Below are positions 1 through 44,461 of a stretch of DNA of 46,447 nt, piece by piece. The position numbers and the translations under genes are program-made. The notes beneath the pieces are model-generated. The model did no database searches, was not told the DNA's origin, and saw only the letters and a list, made by a program, of their open reading frames with translations. Origin of the DNA: Promethearchaeota archaeon (GTDB lineage: Archaea > Asgardarchaeota > Lokiarchaeia > Sigyniarchaeales > SOKP01); assembly GCA_048938895.1 (NCBI GenBank), contig JBHLLU010000032.1, positions 1 to 46,447 of the forward strand. The letters are read 5' to 3'. Numbering within the stretch: the first letter of the stretch is position 1; every line of letters starts with the position of its first letter.

Positions 1-40
1 TTTTTCTAGATTAGCAATTAATAAAAAAGGTGAATAACTG

Positions 41-763
41 ATTCCCTATTTTGAATATTCTGGAAAAAAAATATATTTTCAAGTTAGAAATAGTAATTCT
101 TCACGAGCAATCATATTTGTTCATGGTTCAGGGGGAAATTCTGATATTTGGAAAGCGCAATTAAATTTGAAGGTAAATTATAACCTTTATGCCCTGGATT
201 TACCATCTCACAATAAGTCTGATGAGTTTTCAGAACACACACTTGAATTATATGTAGATGTTCTTAGGAAATTCATTGAATATTTAGACTTAAAAGATGT
301 AATTCTTGCCGGACATTCCCTAGGAGGGGCGGTGATACAATCTTACTATTTTACATATCCCAATGAAGTTTCTGCGTTATTTTTAATAGGAACAGGAGGA
401 AGATTACGAGTTTTGCCTTCAATCTTGGAAACGGTGAAAAATGACTACTCAAAGTTTATTGAGGATATGGATGAGAGTCTTAAAAAGGAATTTTTGAAGA
501 CGGCTTCAAGGGTTTGCTATGATGATTTTAATATTTGTGATAAATTTGATACACTTGATAAGACCGATACTATTAAAATTCCTTGCTTAATTTTAGTTGG
601 CAAGGATGATATCATGACTCCAATTAAGTATTCAGAGTTCTTTCATAGAAAAATTGAAAATTCAGAGCTCGTAATAATTGATAATGCAGGACATTTAGTT
701 ATGATGGAACAACCAAATAAATTAAATGGAGCAATAGAAAGTTATATTAATAATTGTCTTTGA
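41..763 (+). CDS. Alpha/beta-fold hydrolase
   Basis: GHSLGG nucleophile elbow, DLPSHNKS, GKDD acid and AGH histidine. The frame stays open upstream of the ORF-track start (167) and encodes IPYFEYSGKKIYFQ...AIIFVHGSGG (oxyanion motif). In-frame TAA at 35-37, so the start is probably ATT at 41 (SD AGGTGA at 28-33). Confidence 0.9.
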   Translation: MPYFEYSGKKIYFQVRNSNSSRAIIFVHGSGGNSDIWKAQLNLKVNYNLYALDLPSHNKSDEFSEHTLELYVDVLRKFIEYLDLKDVILAGHSLGGAVIQSYYFTYPNEVSALFLIGTGGRLRVLPSILETVKNDYSKFIEDMDESLKKEFLKTASRVCYDDFNICDKFDTLDKTDTIKIPCLILVGKDDIMTPIKYSEFFHRKIENSELVIIDNAGHLVMMEQPNKLNGAIESYINNCL

Positions 764-24406: not shown

Positions 24407-24928
24407 ATGCCACAGAAATTTATACTTAAAATCTTGACTGCAGGAGAGGGAGGTGTTGGAAAAACCACACTCTTACATAGATACGTGGAAGGGAAGTTCT
24501 CAGCAGAAACTCGTATGACTATTGGTGTTGAATTCTTCCTAAAGGAGACGGAAATTGACGGAAAACAATGTACACTGCAGCTCTGGGATTTTGGAGGTCA
24601 AGAGCGTTTCCGTTTTTTACTTGAAAGTTATGTGCTTGGAGCAAAAGGTGCATTGCTGATGTTTGACCTTACACGGATGATGACATTAGAAAATCTTGAA
24701 CAATGGCTCAATATTGTTCGAAAGGGAGACCCTAATCTTCCCGTTCTTTTTTTGGGTACAAAATTGGACTTGATAGATGAAATCCAAGTAGATGATGACT
24801 ATGCGAGAACATTTCTCGAGGAATTTAATCTTATTGATTTTCTTAAAATTTCATCCAAAACGGGCGAAAATGTAGGAAATGCTTTTGATATACTCACAAA
24901 AAAAATATTAGAGCGACAGACTTATTGA
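24407..24928 (+). CDS. Rab/Ras-like small GTPase
   Basis: GEGGVGKT, TIGVEF, WDFGGQERF, GTKLD, SSK. Confidence 0.95.
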   Translation: MPQKFILKILTAGEGGVGKTTLLHRYVEGKFSAETRMTIGVEFFLKETEIDGKQCTLQLWDFGGQERFRFLLESYVLGAKGALLMFDLTRMMTLENLEQWLNIVRKGDPNLPVLFLGTKLDLIDEIQVDDDYARTFLEEFNLIDFLKISSKTGENVGNAFDILTKKILERQTY

Positions 24929-25368
24929 AGTCTAATATAACCCTAATAGTACTTGACTCAAATTTCATTTTACTTCCTTTTCAATTTAAAATCGATTATT
25001 TAAATGAAATTAGGAACAATTTGGAAGGAAAATTAAGATTTATCATATTTCAACAAGTTTTAAATGAGCTTAAGGCTAAGAGAAATAGAGAGATTAGATC
25101 CACAAAATTTAAGAGATTGCTTGATGCGGGATTGATGTATTTAGAAAAGAATAAAGGAAAGTTTGAGATTGATTTTATGGAGGATATCAAAGATGAAAAT
25201 GAATCAACGGATGATTTTCTATTTAGAAAGACAATGGAACAAAAGGATAAATCTCACATGATTTTTCTTGCTACTAATGATTCTGATTTACGCAGAAGGG
25301 CAAGATTGGCGAAATTAAACACTATATATCTCCGACAAAAAAAATTTTTGGTCATAGAGAGAACTTAA
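24925..25368 (+). CDS. PIN-domain protein (COG1412, Fcf1/Utp23-like)
   Basis: LDSNF, VLNEL, TDD, LATNDSDLRRR, YLRQKK; start overlaps the GTPase stop. Confidence 0.88.
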   Translation: MKSNITLIVLDSNFILLPFQFKIDYLNEIRNNLEGKLRFIIFQQVLNELKAKRNREIRSTKFKRLLDAGLMYLEKNKGKFEIDFMEDIKDENESTDDFLFRKTMEQKDKSHMIFLATNDSDLRRRARLAKLNTIYLRQKKFLVIERT

Positions 25369-25454: not shown

Positions 25455-25964
25455 ATGGCTAAACTTCTTAAAGTAATAACGGCGGGAGACGGTGGAGTAG
25501 GAAAGACTACACTTCTTTACAGATATGTGGAAGGGAAATTCCTAGCAGATACAAAGATGACTCTTGGTGTGGAATTCTTTTTGAAAGAAATCAATATTAA
25601 AGGAGAAATAGTTAACCTGCAGGTCTGGGATTTTGGAGGGCAAGATCATTTCCGACCTTTATTAGAAAATTACTCTGTAGGGGCAAGAGGAGCTCTTTTA
25701 TTATTTGATCTTACGCGTCCCTCAAGTTTAGAAAATATTGAACAGTGGGTGAATATATGCCGAGGAAAAAATCCAGGAATTCCAATAATTTTCCTGGGAA
25801 CAAAGTTAGATTTAACGGAATCACTAACTGTGGATGATAGATTTGCCCGAACTTTTCCAAAAAGGTATGATTTCTTTAAATACCTGAAAATTTCATCTAA
25901 AACAGGCCAAAATGTGAATCTAGCTTTTAAATTACTTACGAAAGAAATCATCAAGAATCTTTAA
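25455..25964 (+). CDS. Rab/Ras-like small GTPase
   Basis: GDGGVGKT, TLGVEF, WDFGGQ, GTKLD, SSK; paralog of 24407..24928. Confidence 0.95.
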   Translation: MAKLLKVITAGDGGVGKTTLLYRYVEGKFLADTKMTLGVEFFLKEINIKGEIVNLQVWDFGGQDHFRPLLENYSVGARGALLLFDLTRPSSLENIEQWVNICRGKNPGIPIIFLGTKLDLTESLTVDDRFARTFPKRYDFFKYLKISSKTGQNVNLAFKLLTKEIIKNL

Positions 25965-38685: not shown

Positions 38686-38761
38686 AAATACTATTTTTTT
38701 ATAAAAAGAAGTAATAAATAAAAAAAGAAATTTCATTTTTTCTTTACTTAATCATTTACTA

Positions 38762-38971
38762 TTAGTCTTCGTAATCTTCTTCCATTAACTTTTCGATTTT
38801 CTCTTCTAATTCCTCTACTTTCGCCGAAAGCGCCTCTATCTTCTTGTATGACTCACATCTCTCACAGCCGTCATCTTCTTCGCATATAGGCAAGGTATCA
38901 CATTTCTCTTCAAGAGCATCTATTTCTTCTAGTAATTTATCAACTTGGTCTTCGAGATCGTCAATACTCAT
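38762..38971 (-). CDS. Small acidic coiled-coil protein with central 4-Cys cluster
   Basis: Heptad arms flanking C-x5-C-x5-C-x2-C; ATG with an upstream GGTG SD-like motif. Confidence 0.75.
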   Translation of the reverse strand: MSIDDLEDQVDKLLEEIDALEEKCDTLPICEEDDGCERCESYKKIEALSAKVEELEEKIEKLMEEDYED

Positions 38972-39130
38972 AATTCACACCTAATTTGTTAAATTAATTA
39001 AAGATGTCCTAATTTAATTCTTTTTTGCTTTATATTTTTGATTTTACCGAACTAATTAAATTATGATAATTTAAAGAATTTGCATATTTATTTATATCAA
39101 TCAATAAATAATTCCCTATTATAATTTTTA

Positions 39131-39811
39131 TTATTCCATTCCTGAGATTTCAGGTGTATCTGGAATTTGATCTTCCAATTTACGGATTATTTTAATATTT
39201 CTTTTATAAAACTTAACAGAATCTTTAATTAACACAATTGCTTCTTTAGGGATATCTTCCTCATCTATTTCAATATCTGTGATCATGAAATCTAACCCTA
39301 CTGTTAATTTATATGATTCTTCAAATTCTTTATTTACAAATATATCAATTAAAGAGGATTTTCCTACAGCTGCAGCACCTACAAGTAAAATTTTAAAACG
39401 AAAGTGATCAGATTCAATAACTTCCCCCAACCGTGGTTTAAAATCTAATAATGCGGTTAAAGACAATCGATAAAATAATTTCTCAACATTAATATTTTCT
39501 AATGCTGAAGTTTCAATATATTCAAACAGATTATGTTGATTTACCATTTGCGTTATCCTTTCACGAGGAATAGTTTCTCCAATATCTTTTTTCAAATCAC
39601 ATTTATTTCCTGCTAAGATAATTGGAATATTTCCAGAACGTTCTCTTATATCATCAAAAGATTCATCTATAGATTCAAAAGTATCAGGTCGAGACAAATC
39701 GAAAACTAACCCTACCGCTGCAACACCTTTAAAAAAATCCGTTTTAAAGAACTCAAACCGTTCTTGACCCGCTATATCCCACAGACTGAGAGTTAATTTC
39801 AAAGGCAACAA
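39131..39811 (-). CDS. Circularly permuted Rab-like GTPase (G3-G4-G5-G1-G2)
   Basis: WDIAGQERF (aa 11-19), NKCD (69-72), ETSA (100-103), then GAAAVGKS (145-152) and TVGLDF (170-175). Confidence 0.88.
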   Translation of the reverse strand: MLPLKLTLSLWDIAGQERFEFFKTDFFKGVAAVGLVFDLSRPDTFESIDESFDDIRERSGNIPIILAGNKCDLKKDIGETIPRERITQMVNQHNLFEYIETSALENINVEKLFYRLSLTALLDFKPRLGEVIESDHFRFKILLVGAAAVGKSSLIDIFVNKEFEESYKLTVGLDFMITDIEIDEEDIPKEAIVLIKDSVKFYKRNIKIIRKLEDQIPDTPEISGME

Positions 39812-39855
39812 CCATAGTTTCTATTAATAATATAAATTACCATTGACTTTTTAGT

Positions 39856-40596
39856 TTAATTATTTGAAGAATTTTCTAAAGAATGCGGAATTGATGATTC
39901 CCAGATACCAATATATTCGTCTAATAAACGATAATTATGGTTAAATCCCATAGTTTTAAAAAATTCTTTTAAACCCATTAAATCAAAACCCCATTTACTT
40001 CTTTTGTGATAAGGATTGATTCCATCATTGTCCAGGAAAAAAAAATCAATAATTTTGTAAATTGGTAATGGAAGAAATTTTCCAAAATAAACAATTAGTT
40101 TGAATAATTTATCTCGAGGGTTGATGTCCGTTGGTTTTACAGCATAAGGTTCACAAACGATAATTTTCTGAGTATAATTTTTCGCCAGATTAATTAGTTC
40201 TACGTGTTTTGGAAAAATATGATGTAAAATGTCTGAAATTACAATTACATCAAACATCTTCCCGTTATAATCTTTGAAATCGAATATGTCTCTGTGCTTC
40301 AAGGTAATTTTTTCGAGTTTAATATTCCTCTTCTTTAATTCCTTTTTTCTAATGTGTTTCAAAAACCGTTGATTTAGATCAATTCCTTCATATTCAATAA
40401 AGGGATGTAAGAAGCGCATTAAATATCCGGTACCACAAGGCAAGTCTAAAATTTTCTGTGGTCCTTTACCAATCAGATGTGCGATAGTAAGGAACTTTTT
40501 ATCTTGATCATAAAGTCTTCTTGTAATTGCATTATAAAGCCATCCGCTTCTATACATTAAACTTTTGAAACTGTGTAGAGTAGAATTTATTACCAT
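39856..40596 (-). CDS. Class I SAM-dependent methyltransferase
   Basis: ILDLPCGTG, GIDLN, FDVIVISDILHH. Confidence 0.88.
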   Translation of the reverse strand: MVINSTLHSFKSLMYRSGWLYNAITRRLYDQDKKFLTIAHLIGKGPQKILDLPCGTGYLMRFLHPFIEYEGIDLNQRFLKHIRKKELKKRNIKLEKITLKHRDIFDFKDYNGKMFDVIVISDILHHIFPKHVELINLAKNYTQKIIVCEPYAVKPTDINPRDKLFKLIVYFGKFLPLPIYKIIDFFFLDNDGINPYHKRSKWGFDLMGLKEFFKTMGFNHNYRLLDEYIGIWESSIPHSLENSSNN

Positions 40597-40654
40597 ATTT
40601 AAAACAAAGAGATTAATCTTAGCACTAGTATAAAATAGTTTATTTTAAAATTTA

Positions 40655-41158
40655 TCATTTGATATTTCTTTCTAGGATTTCAAGCAAATCTTCTTCAAGG
40701 GTGGATTTTGGATTTTCTACAATAGTGCCAATGAGGTTACCATTATTCTTAAAGAAGTAAAATGTTGGTATTTTCTTTAGAGCAAATTTGGGGTTAAAAG
40801 CTTCAGGTGGAGAGCGCTTTTTATGCCAAGTAACTTCATCTTTTTTATGAAGAGCGTCAACCATTATTCCATAGAGTATTTTCAAATCTATATCATCAGA
40901 TTCCATCGATTTGATTATTTTAATCATTCTTGGCATGTTTTTATTGCAGTCTGGACACCAATCTGCTCCTAATGATACTATTTTTAACTTCTCATTCCTG
41001 TTTTTCAAAAGACTTTTAATTTTTCCTAAAGCATCTTGATTAGGTTCGTACGATTTATAATTAGATTCTATTTTATCTCCATATTTTTGTAAATAGTCAT
41101 CAGGACTCATTGTAGGAGATATAAGATCCTTCCATTTTAATTCTGATTTAACATTCAT
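40655..41158 (-). CDS. Thioredoxin-fold protein (WCPDC)
   Basis: GADWCPDC, KIPTFYF, GTIVENP; ATG 41158 preferred over the longer ORF-track start. Confidence 0.85.
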   Translation of the reverse strand: MNVKSELKWKDLISPTMSPDDYLQKYGDKIESNYKSYEPNQDALGKIKSLLKNRNEKLKIVSLGADWCPDCNKNMPRMIKIIKSMESDDIDLKILYGIMVDALHKKDEVTWHKKRSPPEAFNPKFALKKIPTFYFFKNNGNLIGTIVENPKSTLEEDLLEILERNIK

Positions 41159-43215: not shown

Positions 43216-43233
43216 AATTCGAAGCTTCGAATT
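43216..43233. repeat. Perfect 18-bp palindrome
   Basis: AATTCGAAGCTTCGAATT between the convergent aor and GTPase genes. Confidence 0.8.
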
Positions 43234-43768
43234 AAAAAACTTCTAAAACCTTATTCTTGTAGATAAGTCTTGTTAGAAGATCAAATATTTTTTGGACATT
43301 TTCTCCTGTTCTGGAGCTACACTCGACAAAGCCATCAGCTTTTTTCATATTTGCAATTTCCATTGCTTTTCTTGTTGATATTTCTTTAAGATGGATTAAA
43401 TCCGTCTTTCCGCCAACAAAAATAATAGGTAACTCATAATCAATCTCTTTTTCAACAATTTCAAACCACTCATCTACGTGAGCAAGTGAACCATAATTTG
43501 TAATATCATACATAAAAATGGCTCCATTAGCACCCCTGATGTAAGAAGGGAATAAGAATCTAAATCTTTCTTCTCCAGCAAAATCCCATATTTGGAGCTT
43601 TATATGATCTCCTTTCATTTCAACTGTTTTAAGCATAAAATCAACTCCTAGCGTCATTTGAATATCCTCTTTAAAAAGGTTGGTTAAATATCTGTGAGTA
43701 AGAGTAGTCTTTCCTGTTTGCGAATCTCCAAAAATAACTATTTTAAACGTGAAATCTGTTTCCGACAA
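43232..43768 (-). CDS. Rab/Ras-like small GTPase
   Basis: GDSQTGKT, TLGVDF, WDFAGEERF, GGKTD, CSS; TTG 43768 chosen by alignment to the neighbouring paralog. Confidence 0.93.
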   Translation of the reverse strand: MSETDFTFKIVIFGDSQTGKTTLTHRYLTNLFKEDIQMTLGVDFMLKTVEMKGDHIKLQIWDFAGEERFRFLFPSYIRGANGAIFMYDITNYGSLAHVDEWFEIVEKEIDYELPIIFVGGKTDLIHLKEISTRKAMEIANMKKADGFVECSSRTGENVQKIFDLLTRLIYKNKVLEVF

Positions 43769-43918
43769 CCCAAATACCTGATTCAAAATGGTTTTAGATC
43801 TAAATTAGCAAATTATGGTACGATAATGCTAATGTTAAATATAATATTGTTTTTACTCTTTAAAAAATTAACATTACATTACATCCATTCCTTAACAATT
43901 AATGGAATTTCCTTGAGA

Positions 43919-44461
43919 TTAACCTTGGGACCCTTTTAAACCTTTGTTTCTAAAAATAAGTTCAGCTAATTGTTCAAAAATGATTTGAATATTTTCTCCA
44001 GTTTTAGAACTACACTCCACAAAAAGATTAGCCTTTTTTGATTTTGCAATCTTTTTTGCTTTTCTTGTTGAAATTTCTTTAAGATGCCTTAAATCCGTCT
44101 TTCCCCCAACGAAGATTATAGGTAATTCATAAGGAATTTCATTTTTAACAATTTTAAACCAATCATCTACATGGGAAAGAGAGTTATAATTAGTAACATC
44201 ATACATGAATATGCCACCATTAGCTCCTTTAATATAAGAAGGTAAAAGATATCTAAATCTTTCTTCTCCTGCAAAATCCCAGATTTGGAGTTTTATATTC
44301 TCGCCTTGTACATTAACAGTTTTTAGTAAAAAATCAACACCTATAGTCATTTGAAAATCATCCTTGAAGATGTTAGTCATAAATCTATGTGCAAGTGTGG
44401 TTTTCCCTGTTTTTGCATCTCCAAAAATGACTATCTTAAAGGTATAATCGGAATCTGACAA
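43919..44461 (-). CDS. Rab/Ras-like small GTPase
   Basis: GDAKTGKT, TIGVDF, WDFAGEERF, GGKTD, CSSK; tandem paralog of the preceding gene. Confidence 0.93.
   Translation of the reverse strand: MSDSDYTFKIVIFGDAKTGKTTLAHRFMTNIFKDDFQMTIGVDFLLKTVNVQGENIKLQIWDFAGEERFRYLLPSYIKGANGGIFMYDVTNYNSLSHVDDWFKIVKNEIPYELPIIFVGGKTDLRHLKEISTRKAKKIAKSKKANLFVECSSKTGENIQIIFEQLAELIFRNKGLKGSQG

What the first reader, a model, noticed from the sequence alone, without database searches (positions are those of the whole stretch)
39131..39811. Rab-like GTPase with permuted motif order G3-G4-G5-G1-G2
Seen: the protein starts at strand beta3 (LKLTLSLWDIAGQERF), continues through NKCD and ETSA, and passes a ~15-aa linker into beta1/P-loop (FKILLVGAAAVGKSS) and switch I (TVGLDF), ending in a ~45-aa tail. 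All motifs are intact and are the most Rab-canonical in the window. An in-frame TAG at 39821-23 and a 44-nt gap to the upstream gene leave no room for an N-terminal G1. Established: known permuted GTPases (YlqF/YawG family, RsgA, cpRAS) have the order G4-G5-G1-G2-G3. Inference: a different permutation, opened at the beta2-beta3 interswitch turn, probably arising from fusion and trimming of tandem paralogs like the pairs in this window.
Basis: partly seen in the sequence, partly recalled or inferred. Interest (0 to 1): 0.85.

Follow-up and report, generated by a model that had tools for sequence, protein, structure and literature searches.

The report
Circularly permuted Rab-like GTPase, Asgard family
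This gene encodes an intact small Rab-like GTPase whose chain starts in the middle of the usual fold and ends with its usual beginning; the rearrangement is conserved in many related archaea, and the same motif order is already known from the eukaryotic cpRAS domain.

Summary
Window 39131-39811 (- strand; likely start TTG at 39802, 223 aa) encodes a Ras-superfamily G domain in the order G3-G4-G5-G1-G2. It is cut exactly at the beta2/beta3 turn: residues 3-118 match Rab7 57-174 and residues 136-182 match Rab7 9-55.

It is neither a lone truncation nor a mis-assembly.
- All 120 listed relatives (70-100% identity) have the same order and no N-terminal P-loop.
- 67 of 400 sampled genomes of the phylum carry it, 49 of 53 in the window's own genus.
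- dN/dS is about 0.06-0.2 in both halves.
- An AlphaFold2 model (pLDDT 74, pTM 0.75) superposes on Rho/Rab over beta3-alpha5. It also superposes on solved YlqF/RsgA-type permuted GTPases across the alpha5-beta1 junction, so the model is one closed G domain.

Eukaryotic cpRAS (Elias and Novotny 2008) has this same order and break point. The archaeal family nevertheless differs from cpRAS: it is Rab-like rather than RAS-like, stands alone rather than inside VWA or macroglobulin-type giants, is often anchored by a C-terminal transmembrane helix, and was found in one archaeal order only. My searches found no description of it in print.

Verdict: a real, probably independent new variant of a known kind. 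Interest is moderate.

The parts
39131..39811 (-). ORF of the circularly permuted Rab-like GTPase: 226 aa from the first TTG, stop codon TAA at 39131-39133
39800..39802 (-). Likely true start codon TTG, giving MKLTLSLWD... (223 aa)
   Evidence: Relatives start at this position. By my start-picking rule, 24 of 42 orthologue starts are TTG. P0001 (223 aa), the 100%-identity row, has that length; the Atlas record starts at residue 4.
39821..39823 (-). In-frame TAG upstream of the ORF. With the 44-nt gap 39812-39855 it excludes an N-terminal extension.
   Evidence: read directly
39764..39778 (-). G3 motif DIAGQ (residues 12-16) at the end of strand beta3. D12, G15 and Q16 are invariant.
39596..39607 (-). 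G4 motif NKCD (residues 69-72). N69, K70 and D72 are invariant.
39503..39514 (-). G5 motif ETSA (residues 100-103). T101 and S102 are invariant.
39401..39445 (-). Conserved linker joining helix alpha5 to strand beta1 (residues 123-137, DFKPRLGEVIESDHF). D123, R127, G129 and E130 are invariant. The model places a short extra strand at 130-133.
39356..39379 (-). G1 / P-loop GAAAVGKS (residues 145-152)
39287..39304 (-). G2 / switch I threonine and start of beta2, TVGLDF (residues 170-175). T170 and D174 are invariant.
39134..39256 (-). C-terminal tail (residues 186-226). It includes a basic amphipathic helix, IKDSVKFYKRNIKIIRKL, at 39176-39229. This copy has no transmembrane anchor.
   Evidence: helix 189-214; hydrophobic moment 0.69, net charge +6
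38762..38971 (-). Conserved downstream neighbour on the same strand: a 69-aa acidic coiled-coil protein with four invariant Cys. Whether it belongs functionally to the GTPase is not shown.
39856..40596 (-). Upstream neighbour on the same strand, a SAM-methyltransferase-like gene. Synteny only.

Best explanation
The gene encodes a functional, circularly permuted Rab-like small GTPase. It belongs to a vertically inherited, mostly single-copy family found in one order of Asgard (Loki-type) archaea.

The chain begins at strand beta3 (G3) and runs through G4, G5 and helix alpha5. A conserved linker of about 15 residues then leads into beta1/P-loop (G1), alpha1, switch I (G2) and beta2. A tail follows. 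The two segments fold into one ordinary G domain. The protein should therefore bind guanine nucleotide and hydrolyse GTP like a Rab-type switch, because the catalytic Gln, the P-loop Lys/Ser, the switch I Thr and NKxD are all kept.

The permutation moves the C-terminus, and with it the membrane tether, from alpha5 to the end of beta2. Most other genera carry a C-terminal transmembrane helix there. This copy has lost it and keeps only a basic amphipathic helix.

Shown here: sequence topology, conservation, purifying selection, and predicted fold closure.

Inferred, not shown:
- GTPase activity.
- Membrane association.
- That a tether hanging from the interswitch couples nucleotide state to the tail, as the interswitch does in Arf (Arf behaviour is recalled knowledge, not from a call).
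- That the family arose by fusion of tandem paralogs followed by loss of both outer ends.
For: Topology.
- Pfam Ras matches in two stretches at E 2.8e-37.
- The Rab7 alignment maps residues 136-182 to Rab7 9-55 and residues 3-118 to Rab7 57-174.

It is not a one-off.
- 344 proteins scored E<=1e-3 among 8000 candidates. The best 120 are 70-100% identical and 207-277 aa long.
- 120 of 120 have G3<G4<G5<G1<G2, and 0 of 120 have a P-loop in the first 60 residues.
- In the 19-sequence alignment, all G-motif residues and the linker residues D123, R127, G129 and E130 are invariant.

Distribution.
- 67 of 400 sampled genomes of the phylum match at E<=1e-30: genus g1 49 of 53, family f1 63 of 134, family f3 3 of 14, all other families 0.
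- A profile search adds three long forms in genus g13 of f1. Everywhere else it finds only canonical partial matches or tandem gene pairs interrupted by stops.
- The window's own genome has one copy among 106 GTPase matches.

Selection, Nei-Gojobori method.
- Window against L011: dN 0.058, dS 0.737, ratio 0.078. Against L012: ratio 0.120.
- 126 of 666 pairs have dS<1.5. The 40 lowest-dS pairs give 0.059-0.196 overall.
- The C part gives 0.023-0.244 where it could be computed (one pair gave no value).
- The N part gives 0.061-0.198, apart from one outlier of 0.765 in a near-identical pair.

Fold.
- The AlphaFold2 model has pLDDT 74.2 and pTM 0.75, with strands and helices in the expected order.
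- VIA-align puts model 3..122 on Rho/Rab 50..180 at Z 10-12, rmsd 1.9-2.5, 115-124 residues aligned.
- It also puts model about 15..181 on solved G4-G5-G1-G2-G3 GTPases, across the alpha5-to-beta1 junction: YlqF 1puj_A Z 9.7 with 139 aligned at rmsd 3.3; YjeQ 2yv5_A Z 10.1 with 127 aligned; 8pv1_Cd 149 aligned. The C-terminal beta1-alpha1-beta2 therefore sits in its canonical place in the model.

Assembly. Logan contigs bridge both the start region and the linker, and no joints are reported. The arrangement also recurs in about 70 separate genomes.

Tether.
- 8 of 8 complete orthologues from other genera of family f1 end in a transmembrane-like segment, against 6 of 29 loci from genus g1.
- The tail helix of the window copy has hydrophobic moment 0.69 and charge +6.

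Origin. Among 3865 ORFs of the window's genome, the same canonical paralog (C16_10049_10573) is the best hit of both halves. The tandem pair on C60 ranks 3 and 5 for the N part and 3 and 4 for the C part.
Against: - There is no biochemical, structural or expression evidence. No RNA run was available.
- The model is of moderate confidence, and both switch regions fall below pLDDT 50 (residues 16-21 and 164-173). I had no coordinates, so closure rests on two overlapping superpositions and on pTM.
- Trees of the two short parts do not resolve the permuted proteins as one clean bipartition. There are two pure clades of 14 and 11 tips, with one canonical sequence falling between them. Single origin and the identity of the parent paralog are therefore not settled.
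- The family is patchy within its own taxonomic family. With the single-protein query it was found in 1 of 42 genomes of genus g12 and in 0 of 10 genomes of g5 and g6 together.
- Some members depart from the consensus G3 region. The genus g2 orthologues read LEIGGQ where others have WDxxGQ, and P0122 reads IIDLGGQ.
- The proposed coupling of the tail to nucleotide state is pure inference.
Confidence: 0.85

Rival explanations
1. The family shares ancestry with the eukaryotic cpRAS domain through a single permutation event. It would then be an archaeal relative, or even the source, of a gene thought to go back to the last eukaryotic common ancestor.
For: The motif order and break point are identical. 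A 2026 paper lists CPRas as potentially present in the last eukaryotic common ancestor (PMC13393502, passage seen). [quoted passage not shown]
Against: - cpRAS is described as a RAS-family domain with a 'TIE' G2 motif, sitting inside proteins of 840-3933 aa with VWA or macroglobulin-like domains.
- This family has TVGLDF at G2, and all 60 shown PDB sequence hits are Rab-type.
- It stands alone, and its long forms show no VWA domain in Pfam.
- Collinear matches were found only in two families of one order among 400 sampled genomes of the phylum. This points to a late, lineage-specific origin.
- No cpRAS sequence could be obtained with the tools, so the two were never compared directly.
Confidence: 0.05
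2. The two segments do not close within one chain. The protein works as an obligate domain-swapped dimer or oligomer, with beta1-alpha1-beta2 of one chain completing the G domain of another.
For: Nothing direct. Conservation of all five motifs fits either arrangement. The new termini lie in a hairpin at the edge of the sheet. The long C-terminal helix (189-214) could mediate self-association.
Against: The single-chain AlphaFold2 model has pTM 0.75. Its C-terminal part superposes in the canonical position relative to beta4-beta6 of the same chain. The conserved linker is long enough to span from alpha5 to beta1 within one chain. No dimer prediction was run.
Confidence: 0.07
3. It is a decaying remnant of a fused double-GTPase gene, or an assembly artefact, with no function of its own.
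For: Tandem GTPase genes are common in this genome. One search shows one tandem pair, and one search shows long open frames with several GTPase matches. Tandem pairs in relatives also give collinear matches interrupted by stops.
Against: 120 of 120 relatives share the same ends and motif order. dN/dS is about 0.06-0.2 in both halves. Start position, linker and tail are conserved. The arrangement occurs in 67 of 400 genomes and in independent contigs.
Confidence: 0.02

Closest known systems
cpRAS domain of eukaryotic CPRas proteins (Elias and Novotny 2008, PMC2430557)
   Same: Both are Ras-superfamily G domains with the order G3-G4-G5-G1-G2. Both are opened between strands beta2 and beta3, with alpha5 joined directly to beta1. 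Both keep all G motifs.
   Different: cpRAS is RAS-family, with a 'TIE' G2 motif. It is found only in eukaryotes and is embedded in proteins of 840-3933 aa with VWA/Sec23-trunk or macroglobulin-like domains. The family here is Rab-like (TVGLDF; best PDB hits Rab7, Rab32, Rab10, Rab11). It is archaeal and is a stand-alone protein of 207-290 aa, often with a C-terminal transmembrane helix. A minority carry an unrelated membrane domain. The two were not compared directly by sequence.
YlqF/YawG (YRG) and RsgA/YjeQ/YqeH circularly permuted GTPases
   Same: Both are circularly permuted P-loop GTPases. The shared sub-order G4-G5-G1-G2 lets the model superpose on their solved structures across the alpha5-beta1 junction, at Z 9.7-10.1 with 121-149 residues aligned.
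   Different: Their order is G4-G5-G1-G2-G3, cut between beta3 and alpha2 according to PMC2430557. They are ribosome-assembly factors with extra RNA-binding domains (function recalled, not from a call) and are not Ras-like. NCBIfam YqeH scores 24 bits against a cut-off of 297.
Canonical Asgard Rab-like small GTPases, for example Thorarchaeota Rab (PDB 7ezb) and the paralogs in this genome
   Same: The G-domain sequence type is the same. Identity to the best canonical paralogs of the same genome is 44-48%, and 7ezb scores E 8.3e-23. Four canonical copies lie in the same window.
   Different: Those have the canonical G1-to-G5 order. The family here has permuted termini, a conserved alpha5-beta1 linker, and a tail or transmembrane anchor attached after beta2 instead of after alpha5.
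Arf/Sar GTPases (functional analogy only; behaviour recalled, not tested here)
   Same: In Arf the beta2-beta3 interswitch relays the nucleotide state to a membrane-binding amphipathic helix. Here a basic amphipathic helix or transmembrane tether hangs directly from the end of beta2.
   Different: The family here is not Arf-like. The Pfam Arf match is far weaker than the Ras match (33 against 128 bits). The helix is C-terminal rather than N-terminal. No register-shift evidence exists.

Membership tests
Ras superfamily small GTPase (Pfam PF00071 Ras; Rab-like) | All five G motifs present: GxxxxGK[ST], switch I Thr, DxxGQ, NKxD, [ET]SA | tested here: met
   Read directly from the sequence. The residues are invariant in 19 of 19 aligned sequences. 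A motif scan passes in 120 of 120 relatives. Pfam Ras scores 128 bits against a cut-off of 21.6.
Ras superfamily small GTPase (Pfam PF00071 Ras; Rab-like) | Canonical linear order G1-G2-G3-G4-G5 | tested here: not met
   The order is G3-G4-G5-G1-G2. Pfam matches in two stretches, and the Rab7 alignment is split 9-55 / 57-174.
Ras superfamily small GTPase (Pfam PF00071 Ras; Rab-like) | Closest sequence relatives are Rab rather than Ras, Rho or Arf | tested here: met
   All 60 shown PDB sequence hits are Rab-type (Rab7 best, E 3.6e-26; the list includes Sec4 and Thorarchaeota Rab). Structure searches rank Rho and Rab as tied.
Ras superfamily small GTPase (Pfam PF00071 Ras; Rab-like) | C-terminal Cys prenylation motif as membrane anchor (eukaryotic Rab; feature recalled) | tested here: not met
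   The protein ends ...PEISGME, with no C-terminal Cys. Relatives use a transmembrane helix or no anchor.
cpRAS (Elias and Novotny 2008) | Order G3-G4-G5-G1-G2 with the chain opened between strands 2 and 3 | tested here: met
   The definition comes from PMC2430557.
cpRAS (Elias and Novotny 2008) | RAS-family affiliation, including the 'TIE' G2 motif | tested here: not met
   The G2 region is KLTVGLDF. No RAS-family protein is among the 60 shown PDB sequence hits.
cpRAS (Elias and Novotny 2008) | Domain embedded in large proteins with a VWA/Sec23-trunk or macroglobulin-like region | tested here: not met
   The window protein is a stand-alone 223-226 aa. In ten relatives of 243-755 aa, Pfam finds only GTPase/P-loop (NTPase) families.
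cpRAS (Elias and Novotny 2008) | Monophyly with eukaryotic cpRAS domains in a Ras-family tree | not testable with these tools
   No eukaryotic cpRAS sequence could be obtained. The search for longer relatives returned three unrelated proteins, and the genome collections hold prokaryotes only.
YlqF/YawG/RsgA-type circularly permuted GTPases | Order G4-G5-G1-G2-G3, with G3 last | tested here: not met
   G3 is the first motif, at residues 12-16.
YlqF/YawG/RsgA-type circularly permuted GTPases | Sequence membership by curated model | tested here: not met
   NCBIfam GTPase_YqeH scores 24.1 bits against a cut-off of 297.4. Pfam RsgA_GTPase is not among the 7 Pfam families listed for the window protein and stays below its cut-off in relatives.

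The most novel reading that the evidence does not exclude
The permutation is adaptive rewiring rather than a neutral accident. Attaching the membrane tether (an ancestral transmembrane helix, here a basic amphipathic helix) to the end of beta2 would turn a Rab-like switch into one whose interswitch movement is passed mechanically to its membrane anchor. That would be an Arf-like coupling of nucleotide state to membrane, evolved independently in Asgard archaea. It would also mean the beta2/beta3 turn was opened at least twice in evolution, here and in eukaryotic cpRAS. A still bolder variant, that this family and cpRAS share one origin, I put at about 0.05.
Probability: 0.2. Interest if true: 0.75.

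Novelty: new variant of a known kind. Interest (0 to 1): 0.55.

Why it matters
An earlier survey had argued that a GTPase opened at the beta2/beta3 hairpin should not fold (Anand and colleagues, as quoted in PMC2430557). cpRAS showed that such sequences exist. As far as my searches of solved structures show, no structure of this topology came up, and CPRas proteins are 840-3933 aa multidomain eukaryotic proteins, which I judge less tractable than a small stand-alone protein.

This archaeal family offers a small (about 220 aa), strongly conserved, stand-alone protein of the same topology. It is a practical object for testing by structure and biochemistry how a Ras-like switch tolerates, or exploits, this cut.

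It also adds an undescribed architecture to the small-GTPase repertoire of Asgard archaea: permuted, and anchored by a tail transmembrane helix. That repertoire is central to ideas on the origin of eukaryotic membrane trafficking. If the family arose independently of cpRAS, it is a clear case of convergent circular permutation at the same site.

Tried and rejected
- Complex prediction of the GTPase (alignment A1) with the conserved 69-aa downstream neighbour (alignment A2). Result: no answer, score 0.00 against a mark of 0.32, and the controls were not run. I draw nothing from it.
- Rosetta-stone idea. The conserved C-terminal membrane domain of the long forms (last 235 residues of P0127, P0132, P0133, P0143, P0142) has no stand-alone homolog in the window's genome. 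The best hmmsearch E-value was 0.055 and the best tblastn E-value 0.036.
- Folding a long form (P0142 with a 5-row alignment). Result: pLDDT 39.7 and pTM 0.27, unusable. I ran no fold search on it.
- Search for longer relatives, to reach fused forms and eukaryotic CPRas. It returned only 3 unrelated proteins. A direct comparison with cpRAS could therefore not be made.
- Trees of the N part and the C part against all GTPase segments of the genome (94 and 87 tips). They are too short to resolve. The permuted proteins form two pure clades, with one canonical sequence inside their common clade: C43 in the N tree, probably a long branch, and C16 in the C tree.
- The fused tandem di-GTPases from the representative search (P0147, P0151 and others) mostly look like unrelated, probably eukaryotic, Rab11- or Rab1-type repeats. 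They are not direct intermediates, and I rejected them as evidence for the origin.
- Expression. No RNA holder was listed.
- ESM Atlas. The nearest clusters are ordinary archaeal Ras/Arf clusters, and no structure search was possible.
- Literature. Searches found no paper describing a permuted small GTPase in Asgard or other archaea. 'G3-G4-G5-G1-G2' occurs in one paper only, the cpRAS paper. I read parts 1 and 2 of 4 of PMC2430557. Of 10.64898/2026.10.28.762692 and PMC13393502 I saw only matching passages. Everything else I saw only as search listings. Supplementary tables are closed. Tables of Asgard orthologous groups or GTPase classifications may already list this group, and I could not check. 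The library also lacks most subscription journals.
Full report
**What is in the sequence.**

On the - strand, 39131-39811 is an open frame of 226 aa. An in-frame TAG sits at 39821-39823. Only 44 nt separate the frame from the stop of the upstream methyltransferase-like gene at 39856-40596. Nothing upstream can supply a P-loop.

Read directly, the protein has these motifs:
- DIAGQ at residues 12-16
- NKCD at 69-72
- ETSA at 100-103
- GAAAVGKS at 145-152
- TVGLDF at 170-175
- a 44-residue tail

Pfam Ras matches in two stretches at E 2.8e-37. Residues 6-117 lie on profile positions 48-157 of 162. phmmer against PDB sequences (223-aa numbering) aligns residues 136-182 to Rab7 9-55 and residues 3-118 to Rab7 57-174. 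The chain is therefore opened exactly at the beta2/beta3 hairpin turn, and helix alpha5 is joined to strand beta1.

The likely true start is the TTG at 39802 (MKLTLSLWD, 223 aa). Relatives begin there, and P0001 (223 aa), the 100%-identity row, has that length.

**It is a conserved family, not an accident.**

The near-length search gave 344 proteins at E<=1e-3 among 8000 scored candidates. The 120 listed are 70-100% identical and 207-277 aa long. Their sources label them Lokiarchaeota, Promethearchaeota, Thorarchaeota or Hermodarchaeota metagenome-assembled genomes.

All 120 have the order G3<G4<G5<G1<G2, and none has a P-loop in its first 60 residues. In a 19-sequence alignment the G-motif residues, four linker residues (D123, R127, G129, E130) and the 'P..E' just after beta2 are invariant.

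A profile search of 1.84 billion cluster representatives found further, more divergent single-stretch full-length members (P0121, P0122, P0125, P0129, P0135, P0136). It also found long forms of 376-755 aa with the permuted domain at the N-terminus.

Among 400 sampled genomes of the phylum, 67 match at E<=1e-30:
- 49 of 53 in the window's genus
- 63 of 134 in its family
- 3 of 14 in a second family of the same order
- 0 elsewhere

A profile of diverse members adds three long forms in one more genus of the same family. Outside those two families it returns only canonical partial matches (profile positions 5-116) or tandem gene pairs interrupted by stops. The window's genome has a single copy among 106 GTPase matches.

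**Selection and assembly.**

I dropped five rows before counting: L015 (an ORF I had mis-extended), L050 and L051 (cut by contig ends), and L048 and L049 (long forms). Nei-Gojobori estimates over the core then give 0.078 (dN 0.058, dS 0.737) against L011 and 0.120 against L012.

126 of 666 pairs have dS<1.5. The 40 least diverged pairs give 0.059-0.196. The C-terminal G1-G2 part is as constrained as the N-terminal part: 0.023-0.244, with one pair giving no value. The N part gives 0.061-0.198 plus one outlier of 0.765 in a near-identical pair.

Independent short-read contigs bridge both the gene start (X1 record 5, 39613-40700; X2 record 11; X3 record 20) and the alpha5-beta1 linker (X1 record 1, 38700-49492 minus nothing: 38700-39492), and no joints are reported. 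X1 may be the source sample and is not independent support.

**Fold.**

AlphaFold2 with the 19-row alignment gives pLDDT 74.2 and pTM 0.75. The secondary structure runs in this order: beta3, alpha2, beta4, alpha3, beta5, alpha4, beta6, alpha5, a short extra strand (130-133), beta1, alpha1, beta2, and a long C-terminal helix (189-214). The two switch regions are below pLDDT 50.

Order-dependent aligners can cover only part of a permutant at a time. Foldseek aligns 101-135 columns (mostly 108-122) to RhoA, Rab7, Rab8 and Rab11.

The wide VIA-align search is more telling. Model 3..122 lies on Rho/Rab 50..180 at Z 10-12, rmsd 1.9-2.5. Separately, model about 15..181 lies on the solved G4-G5-G1-G2-G3 GTPases: YlqF (1puj_A, Z 9.7, 139 aligned, rmsd 3.3), YjeQ (2yv5_A, Z 10.1), YqeH, RsgA, YloQ and ribosome-bound relatives (up to 151 aligned).

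Those proteins share the sub-order G4-G5-G1-G2. The match therefore runs across the alpha5-beta1 junction and shows that in the model the C-terminal beta1-alpha1-beta2 occupies its canonical place.

**What is already known.**

That is wrong. Elias and Novotny (2008) describe cpRAS as conforming to G3-G4-G5-G1-G2 and lacking the connection between strands 2 and 3. They correct an earlier claim that such a permutant should not fold (PMC2430557; I read parts 1 and 2 of 4). The topology itself is therefore not new.

cpRAS is described as:
- a RAS-family domain with a 'TIE' G2 motif
- specific to eukaryotes
- embedded in proteins of 840-970 aa with a VWA/Sec23-trunk domain, or in a 3933-aa macroglobulin-like protein

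A 2026 paper lists CPRas as potentially present in the last eukaryotic common ancestor (PMC13393502, passage only).

The family here fails three of these features:
- G2 is TVGLDF, and all 60 shown PDB sequence hits are Rab-type.
- The protein stands alone, and ten relatives of 243-755 aa show only GTPase/P-loop (NTPase) families in Pfam.
- It is archaeal and narrowly distributed.

I could not obtain a cpRAS sequence, so common ancestry was not tested directly. On the features available, an independent second opening of the same hairpin is much the more likely reading.

NCBIfam has only the generic small_GTP domain for this protein. Seven literature searches found no description of a permuted small GTPase in archaea. 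Supplementary tables and subscription journals were out of reach.

**Tail and tether.**

The new C-terminus follows beta2. In 8 of 8 complete orthologues from other genera of the family, and in 6 of 29 loci from the window's genus, the chain continues through a basic segment and a variable spacer to a C-terminal hydrophobic helix. That is a tail anchor. Only 6 of the 120 closest database relatives have it.

The window's copy stops before the anchor. It keeps a basic amphipathic helix, IKDSVKFYKRNIKIIRKL, with hydrophobic moment 0.69 and net charge +6.

More distant members carry a long disordered spacer, a conserved domain that no Pfam family matches (KRKTTVFY...PLDARKDSD...TPTKVVKQT), and hydrophobic helices. 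An anchored ancestor with secondary loss in part of the window's genus is the simplest reading.

In canonical Ras-like proteins the N-terminus, the end of alpha5 and the beta2/beta3 turn lie on the same face. This is established structural knowledge that I recall, not a result from a call. It explains why a short linker suffices and why the tether still leaves from the usual membrane-facing side.

What changes is that the tether now hangs from the interswitch. I propose, as inference only, that this couples nucleotide-dependent movement of switch I and beta2 to the tail, as the interswitch does for the amphipathic helix of Arf.

**Origin.**

Among 3865 ORFs of the window's genome, the N part hits 68 other ORFs and the C part 57. 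One canonical 174-aa paralog (C16_10049_10573) is the best hit of both parts. A tandem pair of paralogs on contig C60 ranks 3 and 5 for the N part and 3 and 4 for the C part. This fits fusion of tandem copies of one paralog type followed by loss of both outer ends.

Trees of the short parts do not resolve the matter. The fused di-GTPases in the big database are mostly unrelated repeats. The linker motif (PRLGE) and the 'LP.E' after beta2 are shared by short and long forms, which favours a single origin within the order.

**Neighbourhood.**

The order thioredoxin-like gene, methyltransferase, permuted GTPase and a 69-aa acidic Cys4 coiled-coil protein, all on one strand and followed by an acyl-CoA dehydrogenase gene (on the opposite strand in the window), is largely kept.
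- The 69-aa gene is present in 28 of 29 loci of the genus and in 5 of 12 loci from other genera.
- The methyltransferase is present in 23 of 29 and in 3 of 12.

This may be inheritance only. A complex prediction of the GTPase with the 69-aa protein gave no answer (see Tried and rejected).

**Verdict.**

The gene is a real, selected, circularly permuted Rab-like GTPase, and it represents a sizeable family that I could not find described in print.

The claim of an unprecedented motif order is not correct, because eukaryotic cpRAS has the same order. I rate it a new variant of a known kind, with moderate interest (0.55). It is surprising enough for specialists in GTPase evolution and Asgard cell biology, and useful as a small model for this topology. 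It is not categorically new, and its function remains inferred.

Noticed in passing
window 38762-38971 (- strand): This is a 69-aa, very acidic helix-loop-helix protein with four invariant Cys (C24, C30, C36, C39; CDTLPxCxxxDGCxxCE). It lies downstream of the permuted GTPase on the same strand in 28 of 29 loci of the genus and in 5 of 12 loci of other genera. It matches no Pfam or NCBIfam family above cut-off.
   Followed up: partly
P0127, P0132, P0133, P0143, P0142 (database relatives); L048, L049: These long forms of the family carry the permuted G domain, then a disordered Pro/Glu/Lys-rich spacer, then a conserved C-terminal domain of about 150 aa (KRKTTVFY..NKLSV..FPGC..PLDARKDSD..TPTKVVKQT) followed by hydrophobic helices. 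No Pfam family matches that domain. The window's genome has no stand-alone homolog of it, and the fold prediction failed (pLDDT 39.7).
   Followed up: partly
P0213 (243 aa, representative library): This is a separate permuted protein with the same G3-G4-G5-G1-G2 order but a Rab7-like sequence (Pfam Ras 183 bits) and an Asn-rich tail. It may be eukaryotic, or a gene-model artefact from tandem Rab genes.
   Followed up: no
window 24407-24928, 25455-25964, 43232-43786, 43919-44461: The same window holds four canonical small GTPase genes in two pairs. The first pair flanks a PIN-domain gene at 24925-25368. The genome as a whole gives 106 matches to the GTPase query.
   Followed up: partly
L040, L041 (genus g2 orthologues); P0122: Some orthologues depart from the WDxxGQ consensus at G3. 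The genus g2 copies read LEIGGQ, with Glu at the Asp position. P0122 reads IIDLGGQ, without the Trp. The rest of the motifs are kept.
   Followed up: no
window 39800-39802 and orthologous loci: By my start-picking rule, the start codon at the conserved MK.TLSLWD position is TTG in 24 of 42 orthologues, including the window. The 69-aa neighbour also often starts with TTG. An A/T-rich TTTATATT lies about 27-34 nt upstream of the window's TTG; by eye this looks TATA-like, but I did not test it.
   Followed up: no
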